This document shows, piece after piece, positions 7,907 through 64,000 of a DNA stretch of 64,000 bases. The notes below the pieces were generated by a model, which saw nothing but the letters and a program-made list of their open reading frames with translations, was not told where the DNA came from and did not search any database. Each line of letters begins with the position of its first letter. The stretch's first letter is position 1. The DNA comes from Candidatus Zambryskiibacteriota bacterium (lineage in GTDB: Bacteria > Patescibacteriota > Minisyncoccia > Phycocordibacterales > WO2-35-19), in contig JAZDOB010000010.1 in NCBI GenBank assembly GCA_043799105.1, positions 10,516 to 74,515 of the forward strand. The letters run 5' to 3'. A program made the translations under genes and the position numbers.

Positions 7907-9339
7907 AAGACAAAATAATTTTAATCCAAATAAACACCGCGGAAGACCATTCGGAAAAAGTTTTGCCATTGGGTATTTTATCGGTTGGAAGCGCTCTCCA
8001 CAGAGCGGGTTTTGATGTTGAACTCATAAATATTACTGAAAAGGAAATTGAGAGAACCGTCGAATTTATAATAAAACAAGATCCTATGTTGGTGGGATTT
8101 TCTGTTATGACCGGCAGACAGACCAAACATAGCGCTGAAATGTCCAAGCTTGTAAAAAACAAATCGGGCGCACTTATTTTATGGGGCGGCATACATCCTT
8201 CGCTTTTACCCAAAGAGTGTTTGGCGGAAAATTACATAGATCTGGTTATTGTCGGCGAAGGGGAGGAAACTGCAGTGGAATTGGCCCAAAAATTGATGCA
8301 GAAAAAATCTTTAGACGGTATCTTGGGTTTGGGATTTAAAGGTGGTGGACAGATAAAATTAAATCCGGCGCGCCCATTTATAAAAAATTTAGATGAATGG
8401 CCCTGGGATTTTTCATTATTGCCTATGGAGAAGTATCTCTATAAACTCGGCAAATTTAAAAGAGTAATCGCTTACAAAACCAGCCGAGGATGCCCTTTTA
8501 ATTGCTCCTTCTGTTACAATCGCGCCTTTAATCAGAGTCGCTTTCGAGCCTGGTCAATTGACCATGTACAGAGAGACATCAGTTTCTTGAAAGAAAAATA
8601 TAAAATTGATGCCATTAAATTTTATGATGATAATTTTTTTGTTGATAAAAACCGAGCGCTGACGATTTTAAGAAAAACTAATCTACCTTCTCACCTTGAG
8701 GTCAGAATAGACATGATTGATGATAATCTTGCTAAAGAATTAAAAGATCAAAACGTCTTTGACTTGCTTATTGGGGCTGAGGCGGGTAGCGACCGCATCT
8801 TATCGCTTATTAATAAAAGGATCACGGTCGATCGCATTTATTCAGCAGTCAAATCTTTGGCCAAGTTTAACGTACCCGCCTGTTATTCGGTTATTGTCGG
8901 GTTGCCAACCGAGACCGAGGCCGAATTTGAAGCTACTATTAATTTGCTCTATCAGATATACAAGATTCATCCTGAGGCAACTTTTACTCTGGGGGCCTAC
9001 ATGCCATACCCGGGATCTTTGATGTATGATATGGCTATAAAAGCCGGATTTAAACCGCCGGTCAGGACTGAAGATTGGGGTAAAATTGACCGTTTCCGCA
9101 AAGACTTTTCTTCGCCTTGGGTGGATGGTGAATATGTTTGGCGAATTCGTGAATACTTTAAACTGCTAAAATTCAAACTGGGGCCGATTAATTCTTGGTT
9201 TGATTGGCGTTTGAAACATCGGTTTTTCGCTTGGCCCATTGATATTTATCTGGTAGAGTGGCTTTCAGGTCTGGCTATCGAGGAAAAAAGTTGGTTCGGG
9301 CATCTTTTGAGGAAAAGTTACAATTTTATCAAAAAATAG
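7903..9339 (+). CDS. B12-binding (class B) radical SAM enzyme, paralog 1
   Basis: N-terminal cobalamin-binding-type domain (KIILIQINT…LPLGILSVGSALHRAGFDVELINI). Radical SAM CxxxCxxC motif (SRGCPFNCSFCYN). Confidence 0.8.
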   Translation: MKDKIILIQINTAEDHSEKVLPLGILSVGSALHRAGFDVELINITEKEIERTVEFIIKQDPMLVGFSVMTGRQTKHSAEMSKLVKNKSGALILWGGIHPSLLPKECLAENYIDLVIVGEGEETAVELAQKLMQKKSLDGILGLGFKGGGQIKLNPARPFIKNLDEWPWDFSLLPMEKYLYKLGKFKRVIAYKTSRGCPFNCSFCYNRAFNQSRFRAWSIDHVQRDISFLKEKYKIDAIKFYDDNFFVDKNRALTILRKTNLPSHLEVRIDMIDDNLAKELKDQNVFDLLIGAEAGSDRILSLINKRITVDRIYSAVKSLAKFNVPACYSVIVGLPTETEAEFEATINLLYQIYKIHPEATFTLGAYMPYPGSLMYDMAIKAGFKPPVRTEDWGKIDRFRKDFSSPWVDGEYVWRIREYFKLLKFKLGPINSWFDWRLKHRFFAWPIDIYLVEWLSGLAIEEKSWFGHLLRKSYNFIKK

Positions 9340-50508: not shown

Positions 50509-50622
50509 AATAAAGGTTTCTTGAGCCTTATCCACAAATGGTTTGCACAAAATCGTAGAATATGCTATACTTATAAGGTGAGTGTGGTGAAGCAATTTCC
50601 ACACAAATGAATGTCTGCGAAA

Positions 50623-50652
50623 GCGCCACCTAACGGTGGCATTTTCGTTTTT
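50623..50652 (+). terminator. Intrinsic terminator downstream of O-antigen-ligase gene
   Basis: gcgccacc-taac-ggtggc followed by attttcgttttt. Confidence 0.55.
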
Positions 50653-50677
50653 CAAAAATTTTTGTATACTTAAATAT

Positions 50678-50763
50678 GTGTCGTGGCGTGACCGGCGGTT
50701 CGCACTCACATAGACATTTGTTTTGGAGATAGCTTCCGCCGGTCGCGCGACGACATTTGTTTT
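50678..50763 (+). ncRNA. Candidate structured RNA: 21-bp GC-rich stem (1 mismatch, 2 G·U) enclosing a 37-nt loop, U-tail
   Basis: gtgtcgtggcgtgaccggcgg…(37 nt)…ccgccggtcgcgcgacgacat then ttgtttt. It sits in a 590-bp non-coding gap upstream of secA. Confidence 0.35.
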
Positions 50764-51099
50764 AGAAATTATTTTTGATATTTTTTTTATAAATTTTTTC
50801 TGAAAATAAAAAAGTTATCCACATATTTTGTAAAAAATCATTTACTTAAAATTTTTTTAGAGCGATAATTAGAACAAGGTCGATCGTCGCGTGAGATTTC
50901 TGAAAGAAATTTTTTACGCGACAAGCGCGCTTAAAAATAATCTCATTCTAATCCCGATGTTCTTCGGGAAAGGAATCTCACTAGAATGGCAAAAAAGAAA
51001 AAAGCATCAAAGAAGAAAAGAGCATAACAGCTTTTTCCTGCTTAACAAAGATTCCGCCTCTCGGCGGAGTTTTTGTTTTTGTGATAATATAAGCCTATT

Positions 51100-57388: not shown

Positions 57389-59341
57389 ATGGCGCGATCA
57401 ATGGTTTTGGGGAACGGGAATACTTTGGTCTGTCTGGATAAGTTCGGACAGGTCAGGGATTTTTATTTTCCATATGTCGGACAGGAAAATCATATCGGTT
57501 CCAACCAACTGCACAAGATTGGAGTTTTTGTTGATGGCGAAACGCATTGGATAGATAATGGCGAATGGAATGTAGATATAAGATTTGAGAAAAGCACCAT
57601 GGTCTCCAAGATAGAAGCCACAAATGAAAAGGCCAAGATTTTTATGGTCTCGACCGATGTTGTTTATAATGAAAAGAATATTTTTTTGAGAAGAATCACA
57701 CTGACCAACAAGGATCACAGAGCGCGCGATATCAGGATATTTTTCAACCAGCAGTTTAAGATAGGGGATACCAACCATGCGGATACGGCATATTTTTCCA
57801 GCACTATTGAGTCCATCATTCATTACAAAGGCAGGAGAGTTTTTTTGGTTGGCGGTATGGGAGGAAACAACAAGCCGTTTGATGATTACAGCATAGGTTT
57901 TTGCGGAGCTGAGGGTAAAGAAGGCACCTGGAAAGATGCCGAGGATGGAGCTTTGTCTAAAAATTCCATTGAACACGGAGTGGTAGATTCGGTTATCGGC
58001 TGGCAGAGGAATATTCCGGCGGACGGTTCCATGACTTTATATTATTGGGTGATGGCTGGTGAGACTTACAAAGAAGTCTGTGAACTCCTTGAATATGTTT
58101 TTGAAAAGACACCCGAGCACCTAATTGAGTCCACTCAAGATTTTTGGAAAGCTTGGACGGGGCAAGTTGAGTTGTCTTTACCCGGACTGTCTGAAAGAGC
58201 CAAGAATTTGTTTTATGATTCTCTTTTGGTGATGAGGGCGCATTCTGATGACAGGGGGGGAATTTTGGCTTCGGCTGATTCTGGCAATGTGCAATATGGC
58301 GGGGATACTTATGGATACATTTGGCCCAGAGATGCCTGTTTTACGGCCTGGAGTTTTGATATGGCGGGGTTTTATGATGTTTCCAAGAGATTTTACGCTT
58401 TTGCCAACGATATTTTGACCGAGGAAGGTTATGTTTTGCACAAATACCAACCGGACCATTCTTTGGGGAGCTCGTGGCACCCCTGGGTCAAGGATGGGAA
58501 GAGACAGCTCGCTATACAAGAAGATGAGACGGCCGTTCTCCTTGTTGGACTTTGGGAGCATTATATAAGAGCCAAAGATCTGGAATTTATAGAAAGTATT
58601 TATAATAGTTTTATAAAGAAAGCGGCCGACTTCATGATTCATTACAAAGATATTCATTCGGGATTGCCCCTACCCAGTTATGATTTGTGGGAGGAACAAT
58701 TTGGAGTTTCGCCCTTTACTGCCTCTTTAGTCTATGGAGGTTTGATATCGGCTCACAATTTTGCTAAAACTTTGGGTAAAGAGGAGGATGCCAGCAGATT
58801 CTATGGGGAAGCGGAGACTTTGCGTAAGGCCATTATGGCTCTACTCTGGAATGAAGAAGGAAAATATTTTTTTAAACTAAACGGAGACAAATTAGAGAAA
58901 AATATCAATTTGGATGCCAGTAGTTTTTATGGGCCGTTTCGTTTTGGGGTGATATCCGCTGATGACCCGAGGATGAAAGAGGCATTTAAGATATTGAATG
59001 CCAAACTGAGCAGTGGTATAAGCATAGGGGGACTCGCGCGTTATGAAGGTGATAAATATTCTCACGTTGAAGGCGGGTCGGTTGGCAATCCGTGGTTTGT
59101 GACTACGTTGTGGTTCACTCAATATAAAATAGTGACGGCCAACTCTTTGGCGGAATTGGAGGAAGCGGCTAAAGATATAGAGTGGGTGGCAAAATTTGCA
59201 AGGTCAGGTATGCTTTCCGAACAACTCAACCCGTACACCGGCGAGCCTCTGTCAGCGACCCCTCTCACCTGGAGTCATGCCGAATACGTGCGTACTGTCA
59301 TAGAATATGATAAAAAGATTAAACAATGGCAAAAGATATAA
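57389..59341 (+). CDS. Glycoside hydrolase family 15-like (glucoamylase/glucodextranase, archaeal-type)
   Basis: N-terminal …LGNGNTLVCLDKFGQVRDFYFPYVG…, central …DTYGYIWPRDA… and C-terminal (α/α)6-barrel pattern. Confidence 0.75.
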   Translation: MARSMVLGNGNTLVCLDKFGQVRDFYFPYVGQENHIGSNQLHKIGVFVDGETHWIDNGEWNVDIRFEKSTMVSKIEATNEKAKIFMVSTDVVYNEKNIFLRRITLTNKDHRARDIRIFFNQQFKIGDTNHADTAYFSSTIESIIHYKGRRVFLVGGMGGNNKPFDDYSIGFCGAEGKEGTWKDAEDGALSKNSIEHGVVDSVIGWQRNIPADGSMTLYYWVMAGETYKEVCELLEYVFEKTPEHLIESTQDFWKAWTGQVELSLPGLSERAKNLFYDSLLVMRAHSDDRGGILASADSGNVQYGGDTYGYIWPRDACFTAWSFDMAGFYDVSKRFYAFANDILTEEGYVLHKYQPDHSLGSSWHPWVKDGKRQLAIQEDETAVLLVGLWEHYIRAKDLEFIESIYNSFIKKAADFMIHYKDIHSGLPLPSYDLWEEQFGVSPFTASLVYGGLISAHNFAKTLGKEEDASRFYGEAETLRKAIMALLWNEEGKYFFKLNGDKLEKNINLDASSFYGPFRFGVISADDPRMKEAFKILNAKLSSGISIGGLARYEGDKYSHVEGGSVGNPWFVTTLWFTQYKIVTANSLAELEEAAKDIEWVAKFARSGMLSEQLNPYTGEPLSATPLTWSHAEYVRTVIEYDKKIKQWQKI

Positions 59342-60741
59342 GTTGGAAAACAACCATAGGCCTAGAAATACATGCGGAGCTCAAAACAAAAACAAAGATG
59401 TTTTGTTCGTGCAAAAATGACACGGATGAAAAAAGGCCCAATGTAAATATTTGCCCTATTTGTATGGGGCACCCCGGCACGCTACCCGTCATAAACAAAG
59501 AGGCCGTGAAGAATGTCCTAAAAGTCGGGCTTGCGCTGGGGGGAAAACTGGCTGATTTTACAGAATTTGACCGCAAAAATTATTTTTACCCGGATATTCC
59601 GAAGGGTTATCAGATTAGCCAATACAAACATCCTCTGGTTTCGGGAGGAGAGCTTTTGGGAGTAAAAATAACGAGGGTTCACTTGGAAGAAGATACGGCG
59701 CGTTCGAGCCACGGAATGGGGGACACAGATGATTCGTCCCTTCTTGATTTCAACAGGGCCGGAGTGCCGCTTATGGAGCTTGTGACGGAGCCGGTAATAC
59801 ATTCGTCCGAAGAAGTCGTCAAGTTTGGCGAAGAATTGCAGTTGCTTTTGCAGTATCTGGGGGTGGCGGAGGCCAATATGGAAAAAGGGGAAATGAGGCT
59901 TGAGGCCAATATCTCAGTCAGCAATACCGATAAACTGGGCACAAAAGTAGAAATTAAAAACCTTAACTCCTTCCGGTCGGCGGAAAAAGCCATAGAGTTT
60001 GAAATAAAGAGGCAAATAGAAGCTCTAAAAAACGGCGAAAAAATAAGCCAAGAGACCAGAGGTTGGGACGACAAGAAGCAGGTTACCTTTTCTCAGAGGT
60101 CCAAAGAAGACTCGCACGACTACAGATACTTCCCTGATCCCGACTTGCCAAAACTTAAATTAAGCGAGACAGCCGAGTTTGACGAAAAAACATTGCGTAC
60201 CCAAATACACGAAACTCCTAAAGAAAAAAGGGAGAGATTAAAGAAAGATTACAATATAAAAGAGAGCGATATTGATTTTTATATTTCAAATATTAAACTG
60301 GGCTCTCTGTTTGAAAAAGCTTCACTCGGCCTCAGCCCCAGAGATTTTCAACTGCTCTCAAACTACATAGTGAGCGACATTGCCAGTTTGGGGGAGAGAG
60401 GGTTTTCCATAAATCCAGAGAATCTCTCGTCCCTGATTTCTATGTTTATAAAAGGGGAGGTGTCTTCACGGGGGGCGAAGGATATTCTTTCCAAAATGGC
60501 GGAGAGTGATAGGAACCCAAAAACAATAGCAGAAGAAGAAGGGCTGTTCCAAAAAAGCGATGAGGAAGAACTTGAAAAAGTTGCAAATAAAATAATATCC
60601 GAAAACACAGAAGCTGTTTTAGAGTATAAAAACGGCAAAGTTTCAGCTCTGCAATTTCTGGTTGGGCAGGGTATGAAGGCTACCGGAGGCTCGGCCAATC
60701 CTCAAATATTGAAGGCTATTTTTGAGAAACTTATCGGCTAA
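59326..60741 (+). CDS. gatB: Asp-tRNA(Asn)/Glu-tRNA(Gln) amidotransferase subunit B
   Basis: MAKDISWKTTIGLEIHAELKTKTKMFCSC… canonical GatB N-terminus; …YFPDPDLP…. Confidence 0.95.
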   Translation: MAKDISWKTTIGLEIHAELKTKTKMFCSCKNDTDEKRPNVNICPICMGHPGTLPVINKEAVKNVLKVGLALGGKLADFTEFDRKNYFYPDIPKGYQISQYKHPLVSGGELLGVKITRVHLEEDTARSSHGMGDTDDSSLLDFNRAGVPLMELVTEPVIHSSEEVVKFGEELQLLLQYLGVAEANMEKGEMRLEANISVSNTDKLGTKVEIKNLNSFRSAEKAIEFEIKRQIEALKNGEKISQETRGWDDKKQVTFSQRSKEDSHDYRYFPDPDLPKLKLSETAEFDEKTLRTQIHETPKEKRERLKKDYNIKESDIDFYISNIKLGSLFEKASLGLSPRDFQLLSNYIVSDIASLGERGFSINPENLSSLISMFIKGEVSSRGAKDILSKMAESDRNPKTIAEEEGLFQKSDEEELEKVANKIISENTEAVLEYKNGKVSALQFLVGQGMKATGGSANPQILKAIFEKLIG

Positions 60742-60745
60742 AGGG

Positions 60746-61393
60746 TTACAGGAGGGGTTCTTTCGCTGTACTGGTAGACACAAAATCCCTATATTTTGCC
60801 TGGTCTTTAAACTGTCTTAATACAATATCGGTAGAGATCAAATCGCCCCACCTGTTTAGACCTATGTAGTCCTGGTAGCTCGACCAGGGGTACTTGTCGT
60901 AGGTGTCTCCCCAGGCGCCGATCTCTTTCGGATTTTTGTGTATGTATGCTGATAAGTGCAAAAGCTGATTGTTGTTTTTAACATGTACCGCTCCGAACGG
61001 CCCGTGAAATACGTGACCCTTTTTGTTGTACTTGGCATTGAAATATTTACTGTAGGCGGTAAGTACTCGGTGCATATAAACGGAAAGAATACCGTCTTCC
61101 AAGTTTTGTATCAAAATATGGAAATGGTTGGGCATGAGGGCAAAGGCAACCAATTCAACATTTCTCTTTTTGAGCATGTCATCAATCTTATCTTTCTTTG
61201 TGCTGAATGAGTTTTTTTCAAGGAAGCTTTTGGTGTACCAAGATATGTTGTATATCCGGGTGGGGGATTGGAAATGGGTAATAAGAAATATAAATCTGGC
61301 GCGATCTTTATCGTCTAAAAATATTTTTTCTTTATTAACGCCTCTGCCGAAGAGATGATAATATTCTTTTTCTGCAAAATTTTCGTATCTCAT
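60746..61393 (-). CDS. HuH-Y1 transposase-like protein (IS200/IS605 TnpA / REP-associated tyrosine transposase, RAYT-like)
   Basis: HuH motif …MPNHFHILIQN… plus downstream Tyr-containing region (…VLTAYSKYFNAKY…). Convergent with and abutting gatB. Confidence 0.55.
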   Translation of the reverse strand: MRYENFAEKEYYHLFGRGVNKEKIFLDDKDRARFIFLITHFQSPTRIYNISWYTKSFLEKNSFSTKKDKIDDMLKKRNVELVAFALMPNHFHILIQNLEDGILSVYMHRVLTAYSKYFNAKYNKKGHVFHGPFGAVHVKNNNQLLHLSAYIHKNPKEIGAWGDTYDKYPWSSYQDYIGLNRWGDLISTDIVLRQFKDQAKYRDFVSTSTAKEPLL

Positions 61394-61461
61394 GATGTTT
61401 TTGGTATGGCAGTAGTATAGCAGGAGCTCAAAAGTGCCACTATTGGGTGTGTGGATAACTA

Positions 61462-61501
61462 CTAAACGCTCAGCGTCTAATATTAGACGCTGAGCGTTTA
61501 G
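61462..61501. repeat. Perfect 40-nt palindrome (20+20) upstream of the transposase-like gene
   Basis: ctaaacgctcagcgtctaat|attagacgctgagcgtttag is exactly self-complementary. Confidence 0.85.
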
Positions 61502-61556
61502 TATAGATTTTGGAGTGGGCGTATGGTGTAGTATGGAGATCTTTGGGGGTTGATTA

Positions 61557-61612
61557 AGGTCGAATTTTGGCTGGGTCGGGGTTAATTTTGGTCAGGTCGG
61601 AGTTTTATTAGG
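61557..61612. repeat. Three degenerate tandem ~19-21-bp repeats (RGGTCGRRGTTWATTTTGG)
   Basis: aggtcgaattttgg / gggtcggggttaattttgg / aggtcggagttttattagg in direct succession. Confidence 0.45.
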
Positions 61613-61836: not shown

Positions 61837-62136
61837 TTATGATTTTTCCTCAATATCCGGGTTTCGTTCATTTATATTAACATCTCCCGAGGCGTGCTCT
61901 TCTTCCAGATGGCGGACGGCCAGTTTGCGAATCTCATCTTTTTTCTTTTTTACAATGAAAATATTACTCTCAATCATTTCTATGACTTTGTCAATGTCTT
62001 CTATTTTATAGACCCTATAGTTATTGAAGGGATGGCGGTGAGCTTTGAGCTTACCGGACTTGTCCCAATTTCTCAGAGTGATCTTGGACATACCTAATAT
62101 TTTAGCGGCGTCTTTGATTGTTATGTATGTGTTCAT
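61837..62136 (-). CDS. MerR-family HTH transcriptional regulator (small)
   Basis: ITIKDAAKILGMSKITLRNWDKSGKLKAHRHPFNNYRVYKIEDIDKV: MerR N-terminal HTH pattern. Confidence 0.55.
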   Translation of the reverse strand: MNTYITIKDAAKILGMSKITLRNWDKSGKLKAHRHPFNNYRVYKIEDIDKVIEMIESNIFIVKKKKDEIRKLAVRHLEEEHASGDVNINERNPDIEEKS

Positions 62137-62477
62137 TTTATTGGTTATTTTATTGTTTATTACTGAAAATTAAACACTACCAAACCTATATAAACATTAT
62201 TATATCACTATGTATGAATATAAAAGTTTAATAATGTGGATAACTCGCTGTACATAATTTTTTTAACACATTATAATAATTATAGTATTTTGATTAATTT
62301 TGAGTGCAATTATTGGTTTGGACGGTATTTGGGGGTCTTATAAAGATAAAACAACAATCAAACAAAGCAGACCGGAATGAGATAAAAATATATTAAAAAA
62401 GTTTAGAAAAAAATAAAAATTTCGATACTAAAAAATTAAATTTTTTATATTGATTTATCCCCAACTTTTTTATTCAT

Positions 62478-62560
62478 CTCGTCTAGCCGAGATTGTATAA
62501 TATCCTTAATGGATAAGGATATTAATCTCCACGGCAAGAAATATATCTCGGCTAGACGAG
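62478..62560 (+). promoter_or_regulatory. Nested palindromic operator-like element overlapping TATAAT (-10) and the start codon of the downstream large gene
   Basis: Outer perfect 16-nt arms ctcgtctagccgagat (62478-62493) / atctcggctagacgag (62545-62560). Inner perfect 11-nt arms taatatcctta (62498-62508) / taaggatatta (62514-62524) with loop ATGGA. TATAAT at 62496-62501. Confidence 0.5.
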
Positions 62561-64000
62561 CATCTGAAATCACGGGATACACTAGCGATTACGTTGGACA
62601 ATTATGTCGCGCAAAAAAGATTGATTCGAAGCTCATTGGACGCAGTTGGTATGTCTTAAAAAAAGACATTTTAAAGCACAAAAATTCTAATACCAAGTCT
62701 AGCGAAGAAATTTCAAGAAAACCTTTATTTGTCTCAAGTAAAGATTTTGGTAAAAAGAAGAAAACGGTAAATAAAACGAGAAGTAAAATACTTGAACCGG
62801 TAGTATTTAGATCCGGACTAAATACCAAAAAAATCGCTTATATCAAAGACGATTCGCCGCTTTTCCCCGTTATATCAAGGAAATTTGATTACGAAAGCAC
62901 AAAATACATTGCTTTAGAAAGTGTAGAGAAATCGTTAAATAAGCCCAGACGCAGTCCGTTTGTTGAGAAATTTGCCATAAATACGGCCGTAGTTTCTTTC
63001 GCTCTTCTCTTTGTTTTTGTTTATGTTTTCGGTGAAGAAAAGATTTCCAAGTTAATGCCTTATAAGTTTTTGGAAAATGCAGGCCAAGAAATTTCTTTAT
63101 TATACGGACCTTATATGAACGATGTTCGTGCCAGTTTTAATAAATTTGAACAAAATATTTCAAGCGTAAATCAGAGTGGTGGCCAGCTTGCTTCGGCCAT
63201 ATTTTCTGCGAACACCTGGAACTCGGTTGCCGGTTGGGTAAAAGATACGGCGTATAAAATAGTAAAGCCGTGGTTGAAAGATGATGTGGTTTTGACGACC
63301 TCATCTAACCCCCTTAATCCCCCTTACATTAAGGGGGAGACAGGAAGAGCGATTACAATGAACATCGTGGGGGCTAGCAAGGATTATGTGGATTCGCAAA
63401 TATCGGAATTGAAAAAATATTTTCTAACCCTACCCTTCACTTCCTCTATTGCTCCAAATGTAAACAGATATTACATAACAAACCAAAACGACAGAATTGT
63501 AGATTTAATAAACCAATCCTCGGGAACTTCAAGCGGTGGCGGTACTTCAAATGTTGCCAATCTTTCCGACTTGTCTGACCTCACCCTAACTTCCACCACT
63601 TATGGCGACGTTTTGATATATGACGGAAGCAAGTGGGTGAATACTGCCACCTCAACTTTGGGAATCACAGGCACAGGCGCTTCCTTCGGTCAGGCGTGGG
63701 AGGTAAATGCGGATGGATACCTTGCTCCGACCACGACAATTACGACTCTATTTGGAGATGGATTTCTATCAACAGCTTCCTCAACTATCGTCGGCAACGC
63801 GACTACCACCGGCTCTATGGGGGTCGGAGCTCTTTACATAAACAACGATTATATAACGGATCTTGTGGGGTCGGGACTTTCTCTTACGGGAGGAGTACTT
63901 TCGTCAACCGGGGGTACTGGCAATGTCTCAACATCCACAGTTCCAAATATTGGTGAACTAGCATATTGGACTGGAGACGGAACTCCTTCAACTCTCGGCT
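62509..64000 (+). CDS. Large protein (≥497 aa, 3'-truncated by window end): N-terminal excisionase-type HTH, Lys-rich linker, one TM helix, Ser/Thr/Gly-rich fibre/adhesin-like extracellular region
   Basis: Not in the supplied ORF track because there is no stop codon: frame 1 is open from ATG 62509 to nt 64000 (in-frame TAA at 62437-62439 upstream). N-terminus …KYISARRASEITGYTSDYVGQLCRAKKIDSKLIGRSWYVLKKDI (HTH_17-like). TM …FAINTAVVSFALLFVFVYVFG… Then …SSGTSSGGGTSNVANLSDLSDLTLTSTTYGDVLIYDGSKWVNTATSTLGITGTG…. Confidence 0.7.
   Translation, partial: MDKDINLHGKKYISARRASEITGYTSDYVGQLCRAKKIDSKLIGRSWYVLKKDILKHKNSNTKSSEEISRKPLFVSSKDFGKKKKTVNKTRSKILEPVVFRSGLNTKKIAYIKDDSPLFPVISRKFDYESTKYIALESVEKSLNKPRRSPFVEKFAINTAVVSFALLFVFVYVFGEEKISKLMPYKFLENAGQEISLLYGPYMNDVRASFNKFEQNISSVNQSGGQLASAIFSANTWNSVAGWVKDTAYKIVKPWLKDDVVLTTSSNPLNPPYIKGETGRAITMNIVGASKDYVDSQISELKKYFLTLPFTSSIAPNVNRYYITNQNDRIVDLINQSSGTSSGGGTSNVANLSDLSDLTLTSTTYGDVLIYDGSKWVNTATSTLGITGTGASFGQAWEVNADGYLAPTTTITTLFGDGFLSTASSTIVGNATTTGSMGVGALYINNDYITDLVGSGLSLTGGVLSSTGGTGNVSTSTVPNIGELAYWTGDGTPSTLG

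What the first reader, a model, noticed from the sequence alone, without database searches (positions are those of the whole stretch)
62509..64000. Hidden long ORF running off the window end: excisionase-type HTH + single TM + Ser/Thr/Gly-rich extracellular fibre-like region
Frame 1 is open from ATG 62509 to the last base of the window (≥497 codons, checked codon by codon). The ORF is missing from the six-frame track only because it has no stop in the window. The N-terminal ~45 aa match the phage-excisionase/HTH_17 pattern, including the GRxW[YR][VI] motif. After a ~100-aa Lys-rich linker there is one strongly hydrophobic helix, then low-complexity S/T/G-rich repeats (…GTGASFGQAWEVNADGYLAPTTTITTLFGDGFLSTASSTIVGNATTTGSMGVGALYINNDYITDL…) like phage tail-fibre, adhesin or S-layer-associated proteins. 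A cytoplasmic DNA-binding head tethered through the membrane to a large surface domain is a ToxR/CadC-like one-component topology, but with a MerR/excisionase-type head. It sits next to a transposase-like gene, palindromes and a very AT-rich spacer, so it may be part of an accessory/mobile module. It is a candidate membrane-tethered regulator or surface fibre whose expression is coupled to DNA binding.
Basis: partly seen in the sequence, partly recalled or inferred. Interest (0 to 1): 0.8.

Follow-up and report, generated by a model that had tools for sequence, protein, structure and literature searches.

The report
Membrane-tethered DNA-binding head on giant fibre
The open frame is the start of a conserved gene of ultra-small (CPR/Paceibacteria) bacteria that joins a cytoplasmic DNA-binding head, through one membrane helix, to a huge phage-tail-fibre-like surface protein, and the gene carries conserved operator palindromes at its own promoter, so the fibre probably regulates its own synthesis.

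Summary
Frame 1 is open from ATG 62509 to the window end. It encodes a winged-HTH head, a Lys-rich linker, one TM helix (aa 155-175, N-in) and a Ser/Thr/Gly-rich ectodomain. NCBI already lists it as a partial hypothetical protein of 916 aa from a Ca. Zambryskibacteria MAG.

It is not a mobile module. The order gatB, Y1-transposase-like gene, small MerR and this gene recurs in about 70 of 82 loci from species-level genomes. Complete orthologs are 1,260-3,670 aa; some carry the Peptidase_S74 tail-fibre chaperone or inteins. The head defines about 4,400 protein clusters, and nearly all examined have a TM helix after it.

O1 abuts the -10 box. O2 lies in codons 13-18, kept by rare codons (TCG 83% against 9% background). 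Such dyads occur 60 times in 1.13 Mb (about 2 expected), all but one within about 1.1 kb of these genes.

Best reading (inferred): the tethered head binds these dyads and autoregulates a leaderless-type promoter. The main rival is that the divergent small MerR binds them. I rate it a new variant of membrane-bound one-component regulators, interest about 0.62.

The parts
62509..64000 (+). First 497 codons of a gene of at least 916 codons for a membrane-tethered wHTH / fibre protein. Complete orthologs are 1,260-3,670 aa.
   Evidence: Open frame. Identical to the first 497 aa of P0046 = NCBI MFH0804192.1, 916 aa, partial. Ortholog lengths.
62518..62703 (+). Cytoplasmic winged-HTH head, aa 4-65, of the MerR/excisionase/BldC/RacA fold class. 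Invariant residues are G9, K11, I13, S14, A18, G23, Y24, D27, Y28, G30, Q31, L32, C33, R34, K37, L42, R45, W47, Y48, V49 and K58.
62704..62970 (+). Lys/Ser-rich cytoplasmic linker, aa 66-154, of variable length among orthologs. It ends in the conserved juxtamembrane motif Y-x-K-D-x-x-P-L-F-P.
   Evidence: Composition K 18%, S 14%. Alignment.
62971..63033 (+). Single transmembrane helix, aa 155-175, acting as a signal anchor with N-in topology.
   Evidence: Kyte-Doolittle maximum 2.28 and no other hydrophobic segment; charge +19 before and -8 after. A TM segment follows the head in 141 of 149 family representatives.
63034..63513 (+). Conserved membrane-proximal extracytoplasmic region, aa 176-335, predicted to be mostly helical. 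Motifs include W-x-K-D-T-A-x-K-I-x-x-P-W and A-P-N-V-N-R-Y-Y-I-T-x-Q-N-D.
   Evidence: Alignment. The AF2 model has low confidence (pLDDT 47, helices).
63514..64000 (+). Start of the Ser/Thr/Gly-rich polymorphic fibre region, aa 336-497. It continues beyond the window.
   Evidence: Composition. No DNA tandem repeats. Orthologs carry Peptidase_S74, match a PHROG tail-fibre family, and carry inteins further downstream.
62476..62493 (.). Operator O1, ATCTCGTCTAGCCGAGAT. It has one mismatch to the ideal 18-bp palindrome ATCTCGGCTAGCCGAGAT and ends 2 bp before the -10 hexamer.
   Evidence: The half-sites are invariant or nearly so in 21 orthologous promoters, while the central 6 bp vary.
62545..62562 (.). 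Operator-like copy O2 inside the coding sequence, ATC TCG GCT AGA CGA GCA, encoding I-S-A-R-R-A (codons 13-18).
   Evidence: one of only two matches in 64 kb (expected 0.02). Across 80 genes the codons are ATC 83%, TCG 83% and CGA 85%, against backgrounds of 29%, 9% and 15%.
62496..62501 (+). -10 hexamer TATAAT, preceded by an invariant G and lying 7 nt before the ATG, which suggests a leaderless or near-leaderless transcript.
   Evidence: Read from the sequence. Conserved with 6-7 nt spacing to the start codon in orthologs. The transcription start site is inferred, not measured.
62455..62463 (+). Upstream promoter element TTATCCCCA, a DnaA-box-like 9-mer, 32 nt before the -10 hexamer.
62498..62524 (.). 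Inner 11-nt perfect inverted repeat TAATATCCTTA / TAAGGATATTA flanking ATGGA. It is found only in the M-D-K subclade.
61837..62136 (-). Divergent small MerR/excisionase-type HTH protein of 99 aa, a conserved partner gene and the rival candidate for binding the dyads.
   Evidence: Pfam MerR E=4e-11. Present next to the head gene in most of the 82 loci. Its own promoter carries TTATCCACA at 62235-62243 (-) but no ATCTCG dyad.
60746..61393 (-). Y1_Tnp / REP-associated tyrosine-transposase-like gene, syntenic in the Zambryskibacteria-type loci. It has the same TTATCCACA-N30-TATACT promoter (61450-61458, minus strand) and a 44-bp perfect palindrome at 61460-61503.
57389..60741 (+). The GH15-family glycosidase and gatB genes that anchor the conserved synteny.

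Best explanation
SHOWN. The ORF is the 5' part of a core Paceibacteria (CPR) gene for a bitopic, N-in membrane protein. It has a cytoplasmic MerR/Xis-class winged-HTH head, a basic linker, one TM helix, a conserved membrane-proximal region and a large polymorphic ectodomain. In some orthologs that ectodomain shows tail-fibre features (the Peptidase_S74 intramolecular chaperone, a PHROG tail-fibre match) and in others inteins. The gene has a conserved promoter: TTATCC[A/C]CA, about 13 nt, the 18-bp dyad ATCTCG-N6-CGAGAT (O1), G-TATAAT, 6-7 nt, then the start codon. A second dyad-like copy (O2) lies in codons 13-18 and is maintained by non-preferred codons. Many orthologs have a third perfect copy (O3) about 360-440 nt into the gene.

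INFERRED. The head, held at the membrane and probably oligomerised through the fibre, binds these dyads. O1 occupies the place of a -35 region next to the -10 box, so binding would control RNA polymerase access. Repression is the simplest outcome; a MerR-like spacer mechanism is also possible. O2 and O3 would add cooperative or roadblock sites. The result is in-cis feedback on the synthesis of a very expensive surface fibre, with the locus held at the membrane. The state of the ectodomain (assembly, load, proteolysis) could modulate this. Topologically it works like ToxR/CadC but with a different DNA-binding fold.
For: Architecture. The head-plus-TM arrangement holds across the family: the head search gave 4,426 cluster representatives at E<=1e-3, and 141 of the 149 best-scoring representatives have a TM segment a median of 146 aa after the head. 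Tail-fibre features of the ectodomain in orthologs. Dyads: TCTCG-N4-7-CGAGA occurs 60 times in 1.13 Mb against about 2 expected. Of these, 31 lie within -130 to +80 of a head-gene start, 13 lie at +354 to +441, and all but one of the rest lie within about 1.1 kb. In the 64-kb window only O1 and O2 match the ideal palindrome with up to 3 mismatches (expected 0.02). The promoter block is invariant, whereas about 200 nt in the middle of the intergenic region between the two conserved promoter blocks is unalignable, among orthologs that share 30-55% protein identity. Codon evidence for selection at nucleotide level on O2. Dyads and half-sites persist in loci where no small MerR gene is adjacent, for example L040, L054, L069 and L082. 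The small MerR's own promoter lacks the dyad. All the best structural neighbours of the head except the chaperone modulator CbpM are DNA-binding proteins. Tandem duplication of the head in 124 of the 149 best-scoring representatives fits a domain that has to pair on DNA.
Against: No binding experiment exists, and the assignment of the head to the dyad rests on co-occurrence alone. A divergent small MerR gene with a dyad next to the -10 box is the textbook MerR arrangement, and that protein could be the binder. The HTH domains of some bitopic proteins, such as RodZ, bind proteins rather than DNA (my own knowledge). The Pfam HTH_17 score of this protein is below threshold. If the fibre is trimeric, the stoichiometry does not obviously match a two-fold dyad. 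Only about 10% of the genome was visible, so other sites, meaning a wider regulon or an anchoring array, cannot be excluded. The transcription start and the leaderless status are inferred from spacing only.
Confidence: 0.5

Rival explanations
1. The divergently transcribed small MerR-type protein (61837-62136, minus strand) is the dyad binder and regulates the fibre gene in the classical MerR manner, with a dyad in the promoter spacer beside the -10 box. The membrane-tethered head would then do something else: bind the TTATCC[A/C]CA element shared by the three promoters of the cluster, bind other DNA, or bind a cytoplasmic protein as RodZ does.
For: The divergent arrangement is conserved in most loci. 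O1 ends 2 bp before the -10 hexamer and leaves a spacer of about 20 bp from a T-rich hexamer. The 99-aa protein is a solid MerR/HTH_17 match. There are two conserved DNA motif classes and two wHTH proteins, so either pairing is coherent.
Against: Dyads persist where no MerR gene is adjacent. Extra copies inside the coding sequence (O2, O3) are atypical of MerR-type activation. The small MerR's own promoter has no dyad, which is unusual for an autoregulated MerR.
Confidence: 0.3
2. The inverted repeats act at RNA level, or as a DNA cruciform. A long hairpin (62478-62560) would sequester or display the start codon and control translation of the giant ORF.
For: If the region is transcribed, 62470-62570 folds at -39 kcal/mol (z = -6.7) with the AUG in the apical loop. 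L014 carries a matching change in both arms, TCTGGC against GCCAGA.
Against: The conserved -10 hexamer lies between the arms, 7 nt from the ATG, so the 5' arm should not be in the transcript. Across 21 orthologs only 7 pairs are shared, with no covariation. The left half of O1 is conserved yet has no partner in an RNA model. O3 and the upstream dyads are self-contained palindromes. No Rfam family matches.
Confidence: 0.08
3. The gene belongs to an accessory, mobile or prophage-derived module, given the transposase next door, the AT-rich spacer and the tail-fibre-like product. Alternatively the 16-bp inverted repeats flank an invertible (phase-variable) promoter segment.
For: A Y1_Tnp-like gene and palindromes are adjacent. 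The ectodomain is related to tail fibres. JGI labels the small HTH protein 'predicted site-specific integrase-resolvase'.
Against: The synteny with gatB and GH15 is fixed across many species-level genomes. No relatives were found in IMG/VR viral contigs. G+C content is unremarkable, 0.38-0.40, like the rest of the window. The 99-aa protein has no recombinase catalytic domain. The segment between the repeats is only 51 bp and encodes conserved residues, and in most orthologs the repeats shrink to 7-8 nt.
Confidence: 0.04

Closest known systems
ToxR-like transmembrane transcription regulators (ToxR, TcpP, CadC, PsaE, VtrA)
   Same: Bitopic N-in topology: a cytoplasmic N-terminal DNA-binding domain, a linker, a single TM helix and an extracytoplasmic domain. 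One polypeptide joins an outside domain to promoter binding (PMC5430869 abstract).
   Different: Those proteins use an OmpR/PhoB-type wHTH (Trans_reg_C) and small periplasmic sensor domains. Here the head belongs to the MerR/Xis class and there is no Trans_reg_C match. The ectodomain is a fibre of 1-3.5 kaa. The only visible targets are at the gene itself.
Minimal MerR/excisionase-class wHTH proteins (phage Xis, BldC, RacA DNA-binding domain, TraN, RdfS)
   Same: Same fold, and these are the best structural matches. BldC is a MerR-like protein that lacks the coiled-coil and effector domains (PMC5859096 abstract). By its PDB entry name RacA is a chromosome-anchoring protein, solved in complex with DNA; that its sites are palindromic is my own knowledge. 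TraN is an internal tandem of two such domains, like the common two-head members here.
   Different: All of those proteins are soluble. None is fused to a TM helix and a surface fibre. Sequence identity is only 10-17%.
RodZ
   Same: An N-terminal cytoplasmic HTH, a basic juxtamembrane region, a single TM helix and a variable outside domain (my own knowledge). It serves as a reminder that such an HTH may bind protein (MreB) rather than DNA.
   Different: The RodZ HTH is of the XRE type. No XRE-family model matches the head, and the fold is beta-beta-alpha-alpha-beta-beta-alpha. RodZ genes are not known to carry matching operators.
MYRF, a membrane-bound transcription factor with a phage tailspike intramolecular-chaperone domain
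   Same: It combines a DNA-binding domain, a TM segment and the Peptidase_S74-type self-cleaving trimerisation domain in one protein (PMC3742443; S74 in orthologs).
   Different: According to the paper, the tailspike-derived domain of MYRF promotes self-cleavage and releases the transcription-factor part from the membrane. Here the S74 domain lies on the far side of the membrane, near the C-terminus, so its cleavage would not free the head. The DNA-binding domains are unrelated.
Phage tail fibres and tailspikes with a C-terminal intramolecular chaperone (Peptidase_S74)
   Same: Orthologs P0154 and L018 carry Peptidase_S74 above the Pfam threshold, and P0154 matches PHROG 1980 'tail fiber protein'. 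The fibre sequence is Ser/Thr/Gly-rich.
   Different: This is a cellular gene in fixed chromosomal synteny, with no relatives in viral contigs. It is anchored by an N-terminal TM helix with a DNA-binding head. No S74 domain is seen in the 916 aa known for this protein.

Membership tests
Pfam HTH_17 / excisionase-MerR class wHTH | Profile match at or above the gathering score (27 bits) | tested here: inconclusive
   The window protein scores 17.8 bits, E=0.004. Family members P0047 (38.8 bits) and P0106 (28.0 bits) pass.
Pfam HTH_17 / excisionase-MerR class wHTH | Fold: two-helix HTH followed by a beta-hairpin wing, with closest structures among Xis and MerR N-domains | tested here: met
Classical MerR-family regulators | wHTH followed by a long antiparallel coiled-coil dimerisation helix and a C-terminal effector-binding region | tested here: not met
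   Only a 15-residue helix (aa 51-65) follows the wing, then a low-confidence Lys-rich linker. There is no match to the MerR or MerR_1 profiles.
ToxR-like receptor family | OmpR/PhoB-type (Trans_reg_C) cytoplasmic DNA-binding domain | tested here: not met
   No Trans_reg_C match at E<=1. The fold belongs to the Xis/MerR class.
ToxR-like receptor family | Single TM helix with a cytoplasmic N-terminus and an extracytoplasmic C-terminal domain | tested here: met
   One hydrophobic segment at aa 155-175, with charge +19 before and -8 after. This is a prediction only, with no experimental topology.
ToxR-like receptor family | Direct binding of the membrane-bound protein to a target promoter | not testable with these tools
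   Only conserved dyads at the gene's own promoter and coding sequence were found. EMSA or ChIP is needed.
Tail fibre with intramolecular chaperone (Peptidase_S74) | C-terminal Peptidase_S74 domain | tested here: inconclusive
   Absent from the 916 aa available for this protein, which is truncated at a contig end. Present in ortholog P0154 (38.7 bits) and in L018 (45.4 bits).
RodZ | XRE-type N-terminal HTH | tested here: not met
   No XRE-family Pfam match. The secondary-structure order is beta-beta-alpha-alpha-beta-beta-alpha.
IS200/IS605 or REP/RAYT mobile element (for the neighbourhood) | Variable genomic location or copy number of the Y1 transposase gene | tested here: not met
   The Y1_Tnp-like gene sits in the same place, between gatB and the small MerR gene, in about 28 loci from different species.

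The most novel reading that the evidence does not exclude
This would be a previously undescribed class of one-component 'outside-in' device in episymbiotic CPR bacteria. A giant tail-fibre-like, host-contact protein carries its own MerR/Xis-type DNA-binding head on the cytoplasmic side. Operators are written into its promoter and into the codons of the head itself. Contact, load or processing of the fibre would then be read out directly at its own locus and possibly at a small regulon marked by TTATCC[A/C]CA. The binding would also tether that locus physically to the membrane.
Probability: 0.25. Interest if true: 0.85.

Novelty: new variant of a known kind. Interest (0 to 1): 0.62.

Why it matters
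Patescibacteria (CPR) bacteria have very few recognisable regulators. How they sense and attach to hosts is largely unknown. This family appears to be close to universal in Paceibacteria: about 4,400 clusters at 50% identity, in a fixed position beside gatB. In one polypeptide it couples a large polymorphic surface fibre to a DNA-binding domain, and it comes with an unusually clear operator that is conserved across lineages.

That makes a concrete hypothesis testable without cultivation, namely membrane-tethered autoregulation, or signalling, by a host-contact fibre. It needs only short recombinant domains and synthetic DNA. It also supplies a promoter model for this clade, TTATCC[A/C]CA-N30-TATAAT with a leaderless-type start. 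Finally, it corrects an easy mis-annotation: the adjacent 'transposase' and 'excisionase' are fixed chromosomal genes, not signs of a mobile element.

Tried and rejected
- RNA-structure reading. RNAalifold on 21 promoters gave only 7 invariant pairs and no covariation. The strong single-sequence fold comes from O1 and O2 being copies of the same palindrome.
- Rfam. There were no matches at gathering score in the whole window. Only sub-threshold generic hairpin hits appeared around the locus.
- Mobile or prophage origin. This was rejected on synteny, absence from viral contigs and ordinary base composition.
- Invertible promoter. This was rejected because the segment is only 51 bp, it encodes conserved residues, and no recombinase catalytic domain is present.
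- Replication origin suggested by the DnaA-box-like 9-mers. This is unlikely. Cumulative GC skew rises monotonically across the window, and each 9-mer sits at a fixed 29-33 nt from a -10 box.
- Structure of the ectodomain. The AF2 model of aa 101-497 was too poor (pLDDT 47) for a fold search.
- Sequence search of the PDB found nothing.
- The afdb50 fold library was unavailable.
- Extending the contig through P0046 failed because no gene with that product is on record.
- The head and the small MerR are not close paralogues by BLASTP (E=0.29).
- Testing whether the second head of tandem-head genes also carries ATCTCG gave only three cases: two from the loci (neither has ATCTCG) and one read by eye (ATATCC, not ATCTCG). 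That is too few to use.
- Literature searches found no description of this family.
Full report
**1. Observation**

Frame 1 is open from ATG 62509 to base 64000, 497 codons. The ORF lister missed it only because the frame has no stop in the window. The product is identical to the first 497 residues of a 916-aa public protein, NCBI MFH0804192.1. That entry is named 'MAG: hypothetical protein V1896_01145, partial [Candidatus Zambryskibacteria bacterium]' and lies on a 75,771-bp contig. The ORF is therefore real and already called, though uncharacterised and truncated at a contig end.

The window has a G+C content of 0.33-0.45 and shows no local compositional anomaly.

**2. Anatomy of the protein**

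- **Linker, aa 66-154.** It is Lys/Ser-rich, with net charge +19 over residues 1-153.
- **TM helix.** There is one hydrophobic segment, aa 155-175 (Kyte-Doolittle 2.28). The remainder of the protein has net charge -8, which indicates N-in, C-out topology.
- **Residues 176-335.** This region is conserved and of normal complexity. Its motifs include WxKDTAxKIxxPW and APNVNRYYITxQND. It is predicted helical, at low confidence.
- **From about aa 336.** The sequence becomes rich in Thr, Gly and Ser but has no DNA-level tandem repeats.

**3. Relatives**

A word-indexed search found 45 homologues, all from Patescibacteria MAGs and mostly 'partial'. A scan of GTDB species representatives found 173 stretches, of which 79 loci were kept. 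They come from Zambryski-, Taylor-, Kaiser-, Nomura- and Wolfebacteria and other Paceibacteria.

Complete orthologs are very large: 1,264, 1,268, 2,416, 2,631, 3,008 and 3,673 aa, plus one of at least 3,796 aa that runs off its contig. Other lineages have short forms of 250-450 aa with the same head and TM helix but a different ectodomain.

An exhaustive phmmer search with the 75-aa head found 4,426 cluster representatives at E<=1e-3 and 2,142 at E<=1e-10. Among the 149 best-scoring representatives examined, 124 have two heads in tandem and 141 have a TM segment a median of 146 residues after the head. The eight without a TM segment are short, probably fragments. The wHTH-then-TM arrangement therefore holds across the family.

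The fibre part of orthologs carries the tail-fibre intramolecular chaperone Peptidase_S74 (P0154 aa 776-828; L018 aa 2117-2173). P0154 also matches PHROG 1980 'tail fiber protein'. Three orthologs contain inteins with NYN nuclease inserts. No relative exists in 2.9 million viral contigs, and there is no sequence relative in the PDB.

**4. Genomic context**

The window shows this gene order:

- GH15 (57389-59341, plus strand)
- gatB (59326-60741, plus strand)
- Y1_Tnp/RAYT-like gene (60746-61393, minus strand)
- small MerR (61837-62136, minus strand)
- the focal gene (plus strand)

The same order is found in L001-L027 and L059. The shorter order gatB, small MerR, head gene is found in most of the remaining loci, including those with short head proteins. 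These are positional orthologs at a core chromosomal locus, which refutes the 'accessory/mobile module' idea.

**5. The palindrome**

Comparative data reinterpret it. Upstream of the orthologs the following block is almost invariant, whereas about 200 nt in the middle of the intergenic region, between the two conserved promoter blocks, cannot be aligned:

- TTATCC[A/C]CA
- about 13 nt, T-rich
- ATCTCG-N6-CGAGAT
- (A/T)G-TATAAT
- 6-7 nt
- ATG or GTG

In the window:

- O1 is 62476-62493.
- The -10 hexamer is 62496-62501.
- The ATG lies 7 nt further on, which suggests a leaderless-type start (inferred).
- O2 (62545-62562) is a second, weaker copy lying in codons 13-18 (I-S-A-R-R-A).

Across 80 head genes these residues are encoded by ATC (83% against 29% background), TCG (83% against 9%) and CGA (85% against 15%). 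That shows selection on the nucleotide sequence itself.

The ideal form is the perfect 18-mer ATCTCGGCTAGCCGAGAT, seen as such in L045, L054 and L069. O1 differs from it by one base and O2 by three, and these are the only matches in 64 kb (expected 0.02). This explains why O1 and O2 are complementary to each other.

In 1.13 Mb of related loci, TCTCG-N4-7-CGAGA occurs 60 times against about 2 expected from base composition (my estimate):

- 31 lie within -130 to +80 of a head-gene start.
- 13 are a third copy (12 of them perfect), in frame as I-S-x-x-R-D inside the otherwise unconserved linker. This O3 lies at +354 to +441 and is absent from the window's subclade.
- All but one of the rest lie within about 1.1 kb.

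Lineages with short head proteins keep a GCCGAGAT half-site just 5' of the -10 box and ATCTCGGC in the coding sequence.

**6. RNA or DNA?**

If transcribed, 62470-62570 would fold at -39 kcal/mol (z = -6.7) with the AUG in the loop. Four points argue against an RNA element:

- The conserved -10 hexamer lies between the arms.
- Only seven pairs are shared among the orthologs, and none covaries.
- The conserved left half of O1 would have no partner.
- O3 and the upstream dyads are self-contained palindromes.

No Rfam family matches. The elements are best read as protein-binding dyads.

**7. Which protein binds?**

Two wHTH proteins are encoded at the locus, and there are two conserved classes of DNA motif.

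- The 9-mer TTATCC[A/C]CA is identical to the classical DnaA-box consensus (my own knowledge). It sits 29-33 nt upstream of a -10-like hexamer in front of the head gene, the small MerR gene and the RAYT-like gene, and in front of a few others. There are 154 copies of the 9-mer (counted as TT[AG]TCC[AC]CA) in 1.13 Mb against about 35 expected.
- The ATCTCG dyad is found only at the head gene. The small MerR's own promoter lacks it. It persists in loci where no MerR gene is adjacent.

I therefore favour the head as the dyad binder, which implies autoregulation. The classical pattern of a divergent merR gene with a dyad in the promoter spacer keeps the small MerR as a serious rival. Nothing here is a binding measurement.

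**8. Mechanism proposed**

Shown:

- the bitopic architecture
- the family-wide fusion of head and TM helix
- the tail-fibre features of some orthologous ectodomains
- the conserved promoter and dyads
- the nucleotide-level constraint in the coding sequence

Inferred:

- The heads are held at the membrane and brought together by the oligomeric fibre, or by tandem duplication in the short forms.
- They occupy O1, which overlaps the position where the -35 region would be, and also O2 and O3. This limits transcription of a very costly gene in cis.
- The state of the ectodomain could modulate that occupancy.

This works like ToxR/CadC in topology (PMC5430869). It uses a BldC/Xis/RacA-type domain (PMC5859096). 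It recalls MYRF in combining a DNA-binding domain, a membrane anchor and a tailspike chaperone domain (PMC3742443), although here the chaperone domain is outside the cell and cannot release the head.

**9. Novelty and score**

Five literature searches found no description of this family. Public names are 'hypothetical protein' or 'helix-turn-helix domain-containing protein'.

Membrane-bound one-component regulators are a known kind. What is new is the class of DNA-binding domain, the giant tail-fibre-like ectodomain, the operator embedded in the gene's own codons, and the wide, syntenic presence in a CPR class. I rate it a new variant of a known kind, with interest 0.62.

The architecture is secure (about 0.9). 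The model of the head binding the dyads and autoregulating the gene stands at about 0.5.

Noticed in passing
window 50528-50536(+), 50815-50823(+), 61450-61458(-), 62235-62243(-), 62455-62463(+); also about 80 related loci: The 9-mer TTATCC[A/C]CA, identical to the classical DnaA-box consensus, lies 29-33 nt upstream of a TATAAT-like hexamer. It sits in front of the head gene, the small MerR gene, the RAYT-like gene and a few others. There are 154 copies (counted as TT[AG]TCC[AC]CA) in 1.13 Mb against about 35 expected. It looks like a promoter or activator element of a small regulon.
   Followed up: partly
window 61460-61503: A 44-bp perfect palindrome (22 + 22 nt, no spacer) lies directly 5' of the TTATCCACA element of the RAYT-like gene. 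It could be a REP-like hairpin or a bidirectional terminator.
   Followed up: no
window 60746-61393 (-): The Y1_Tnp / REP-associated tyrosine-transposase-like gene occupies the same chromosomal position in about 28 species-level genomes at 42-84% identity. It looks domesticated rather than mobile.
   Followed up: partly
window about 50565-50690 (+): Downstream of a TTATCCACA-N29-TATACT promoter there is no ORF. Instead there are two hairpins, the second followed by a T-run, which suggests a small RNA. No Rfam family matches.
   Followed up: partly
L006 aa 1280-1605; L009 (three copies); L013 aa 627-968: The extracytoplasmic fibre region of orthologs is interrupted by inteins (Intein_splicing/Hint) that carry NYN nuclease inserts. 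This is an unusual location and an unusual endonuclease type for inteins.
   Followed up: no
L004 about 8820-8900: This ortholog has an in-frame TAA at codon 11 (G-K-*-Y-I-S), yet the frame then stays open for about 2,950 codons. It could be a nonsense allele, an assembly error or a downstream restart.
   Followed up: no
L002/L016 7700-8150: The ortholog on a 167-kb contig is split by a frameshift in the A-rich linker into a 150-aa HTH ORF and a 738-aa ORF, and it is followed by a separate gene with a Peptidase_S74 domain.
   Followed up: no
L002 567-1926: Parts of a diversity-generating retroelement (bAvd plus an RVT_1 reverse transcriptase) lie 6-7 kb upstream of the locus in one relative.
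   Followed up: no
L009, L010, L011, L013, L015, L016, L018, L020-L023, L025, L027 at +354 to +441 of the gene: A third operator copy, ATCTCG-N6-CGAGAT (perfect in 12 of 13 loci), lies in frame as I-S-x-x-R-D. It is the only conserved island in the otherwise variable linker, and it is absent from the window's subclade.
   Followed up: partly
window 62189-62242 and the aligned block in A5: The small MerR promoter region has its own conserved AT-rich elements: repeats of AAACATTA and an inverted TAATAATGTGGATAA. This is possibly that protein's own operator.
   Followed up: no
window 61563-61604: Two tandem 21-nt direct repeats, AATTTTGGCTGGGTCGGGGTT and AATTTTGGTCAGGTCGGAGTT, lie in the 330-nt non-coding stretch between the small MerR gene and the 44-bp palindrome.
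   Followed up: no
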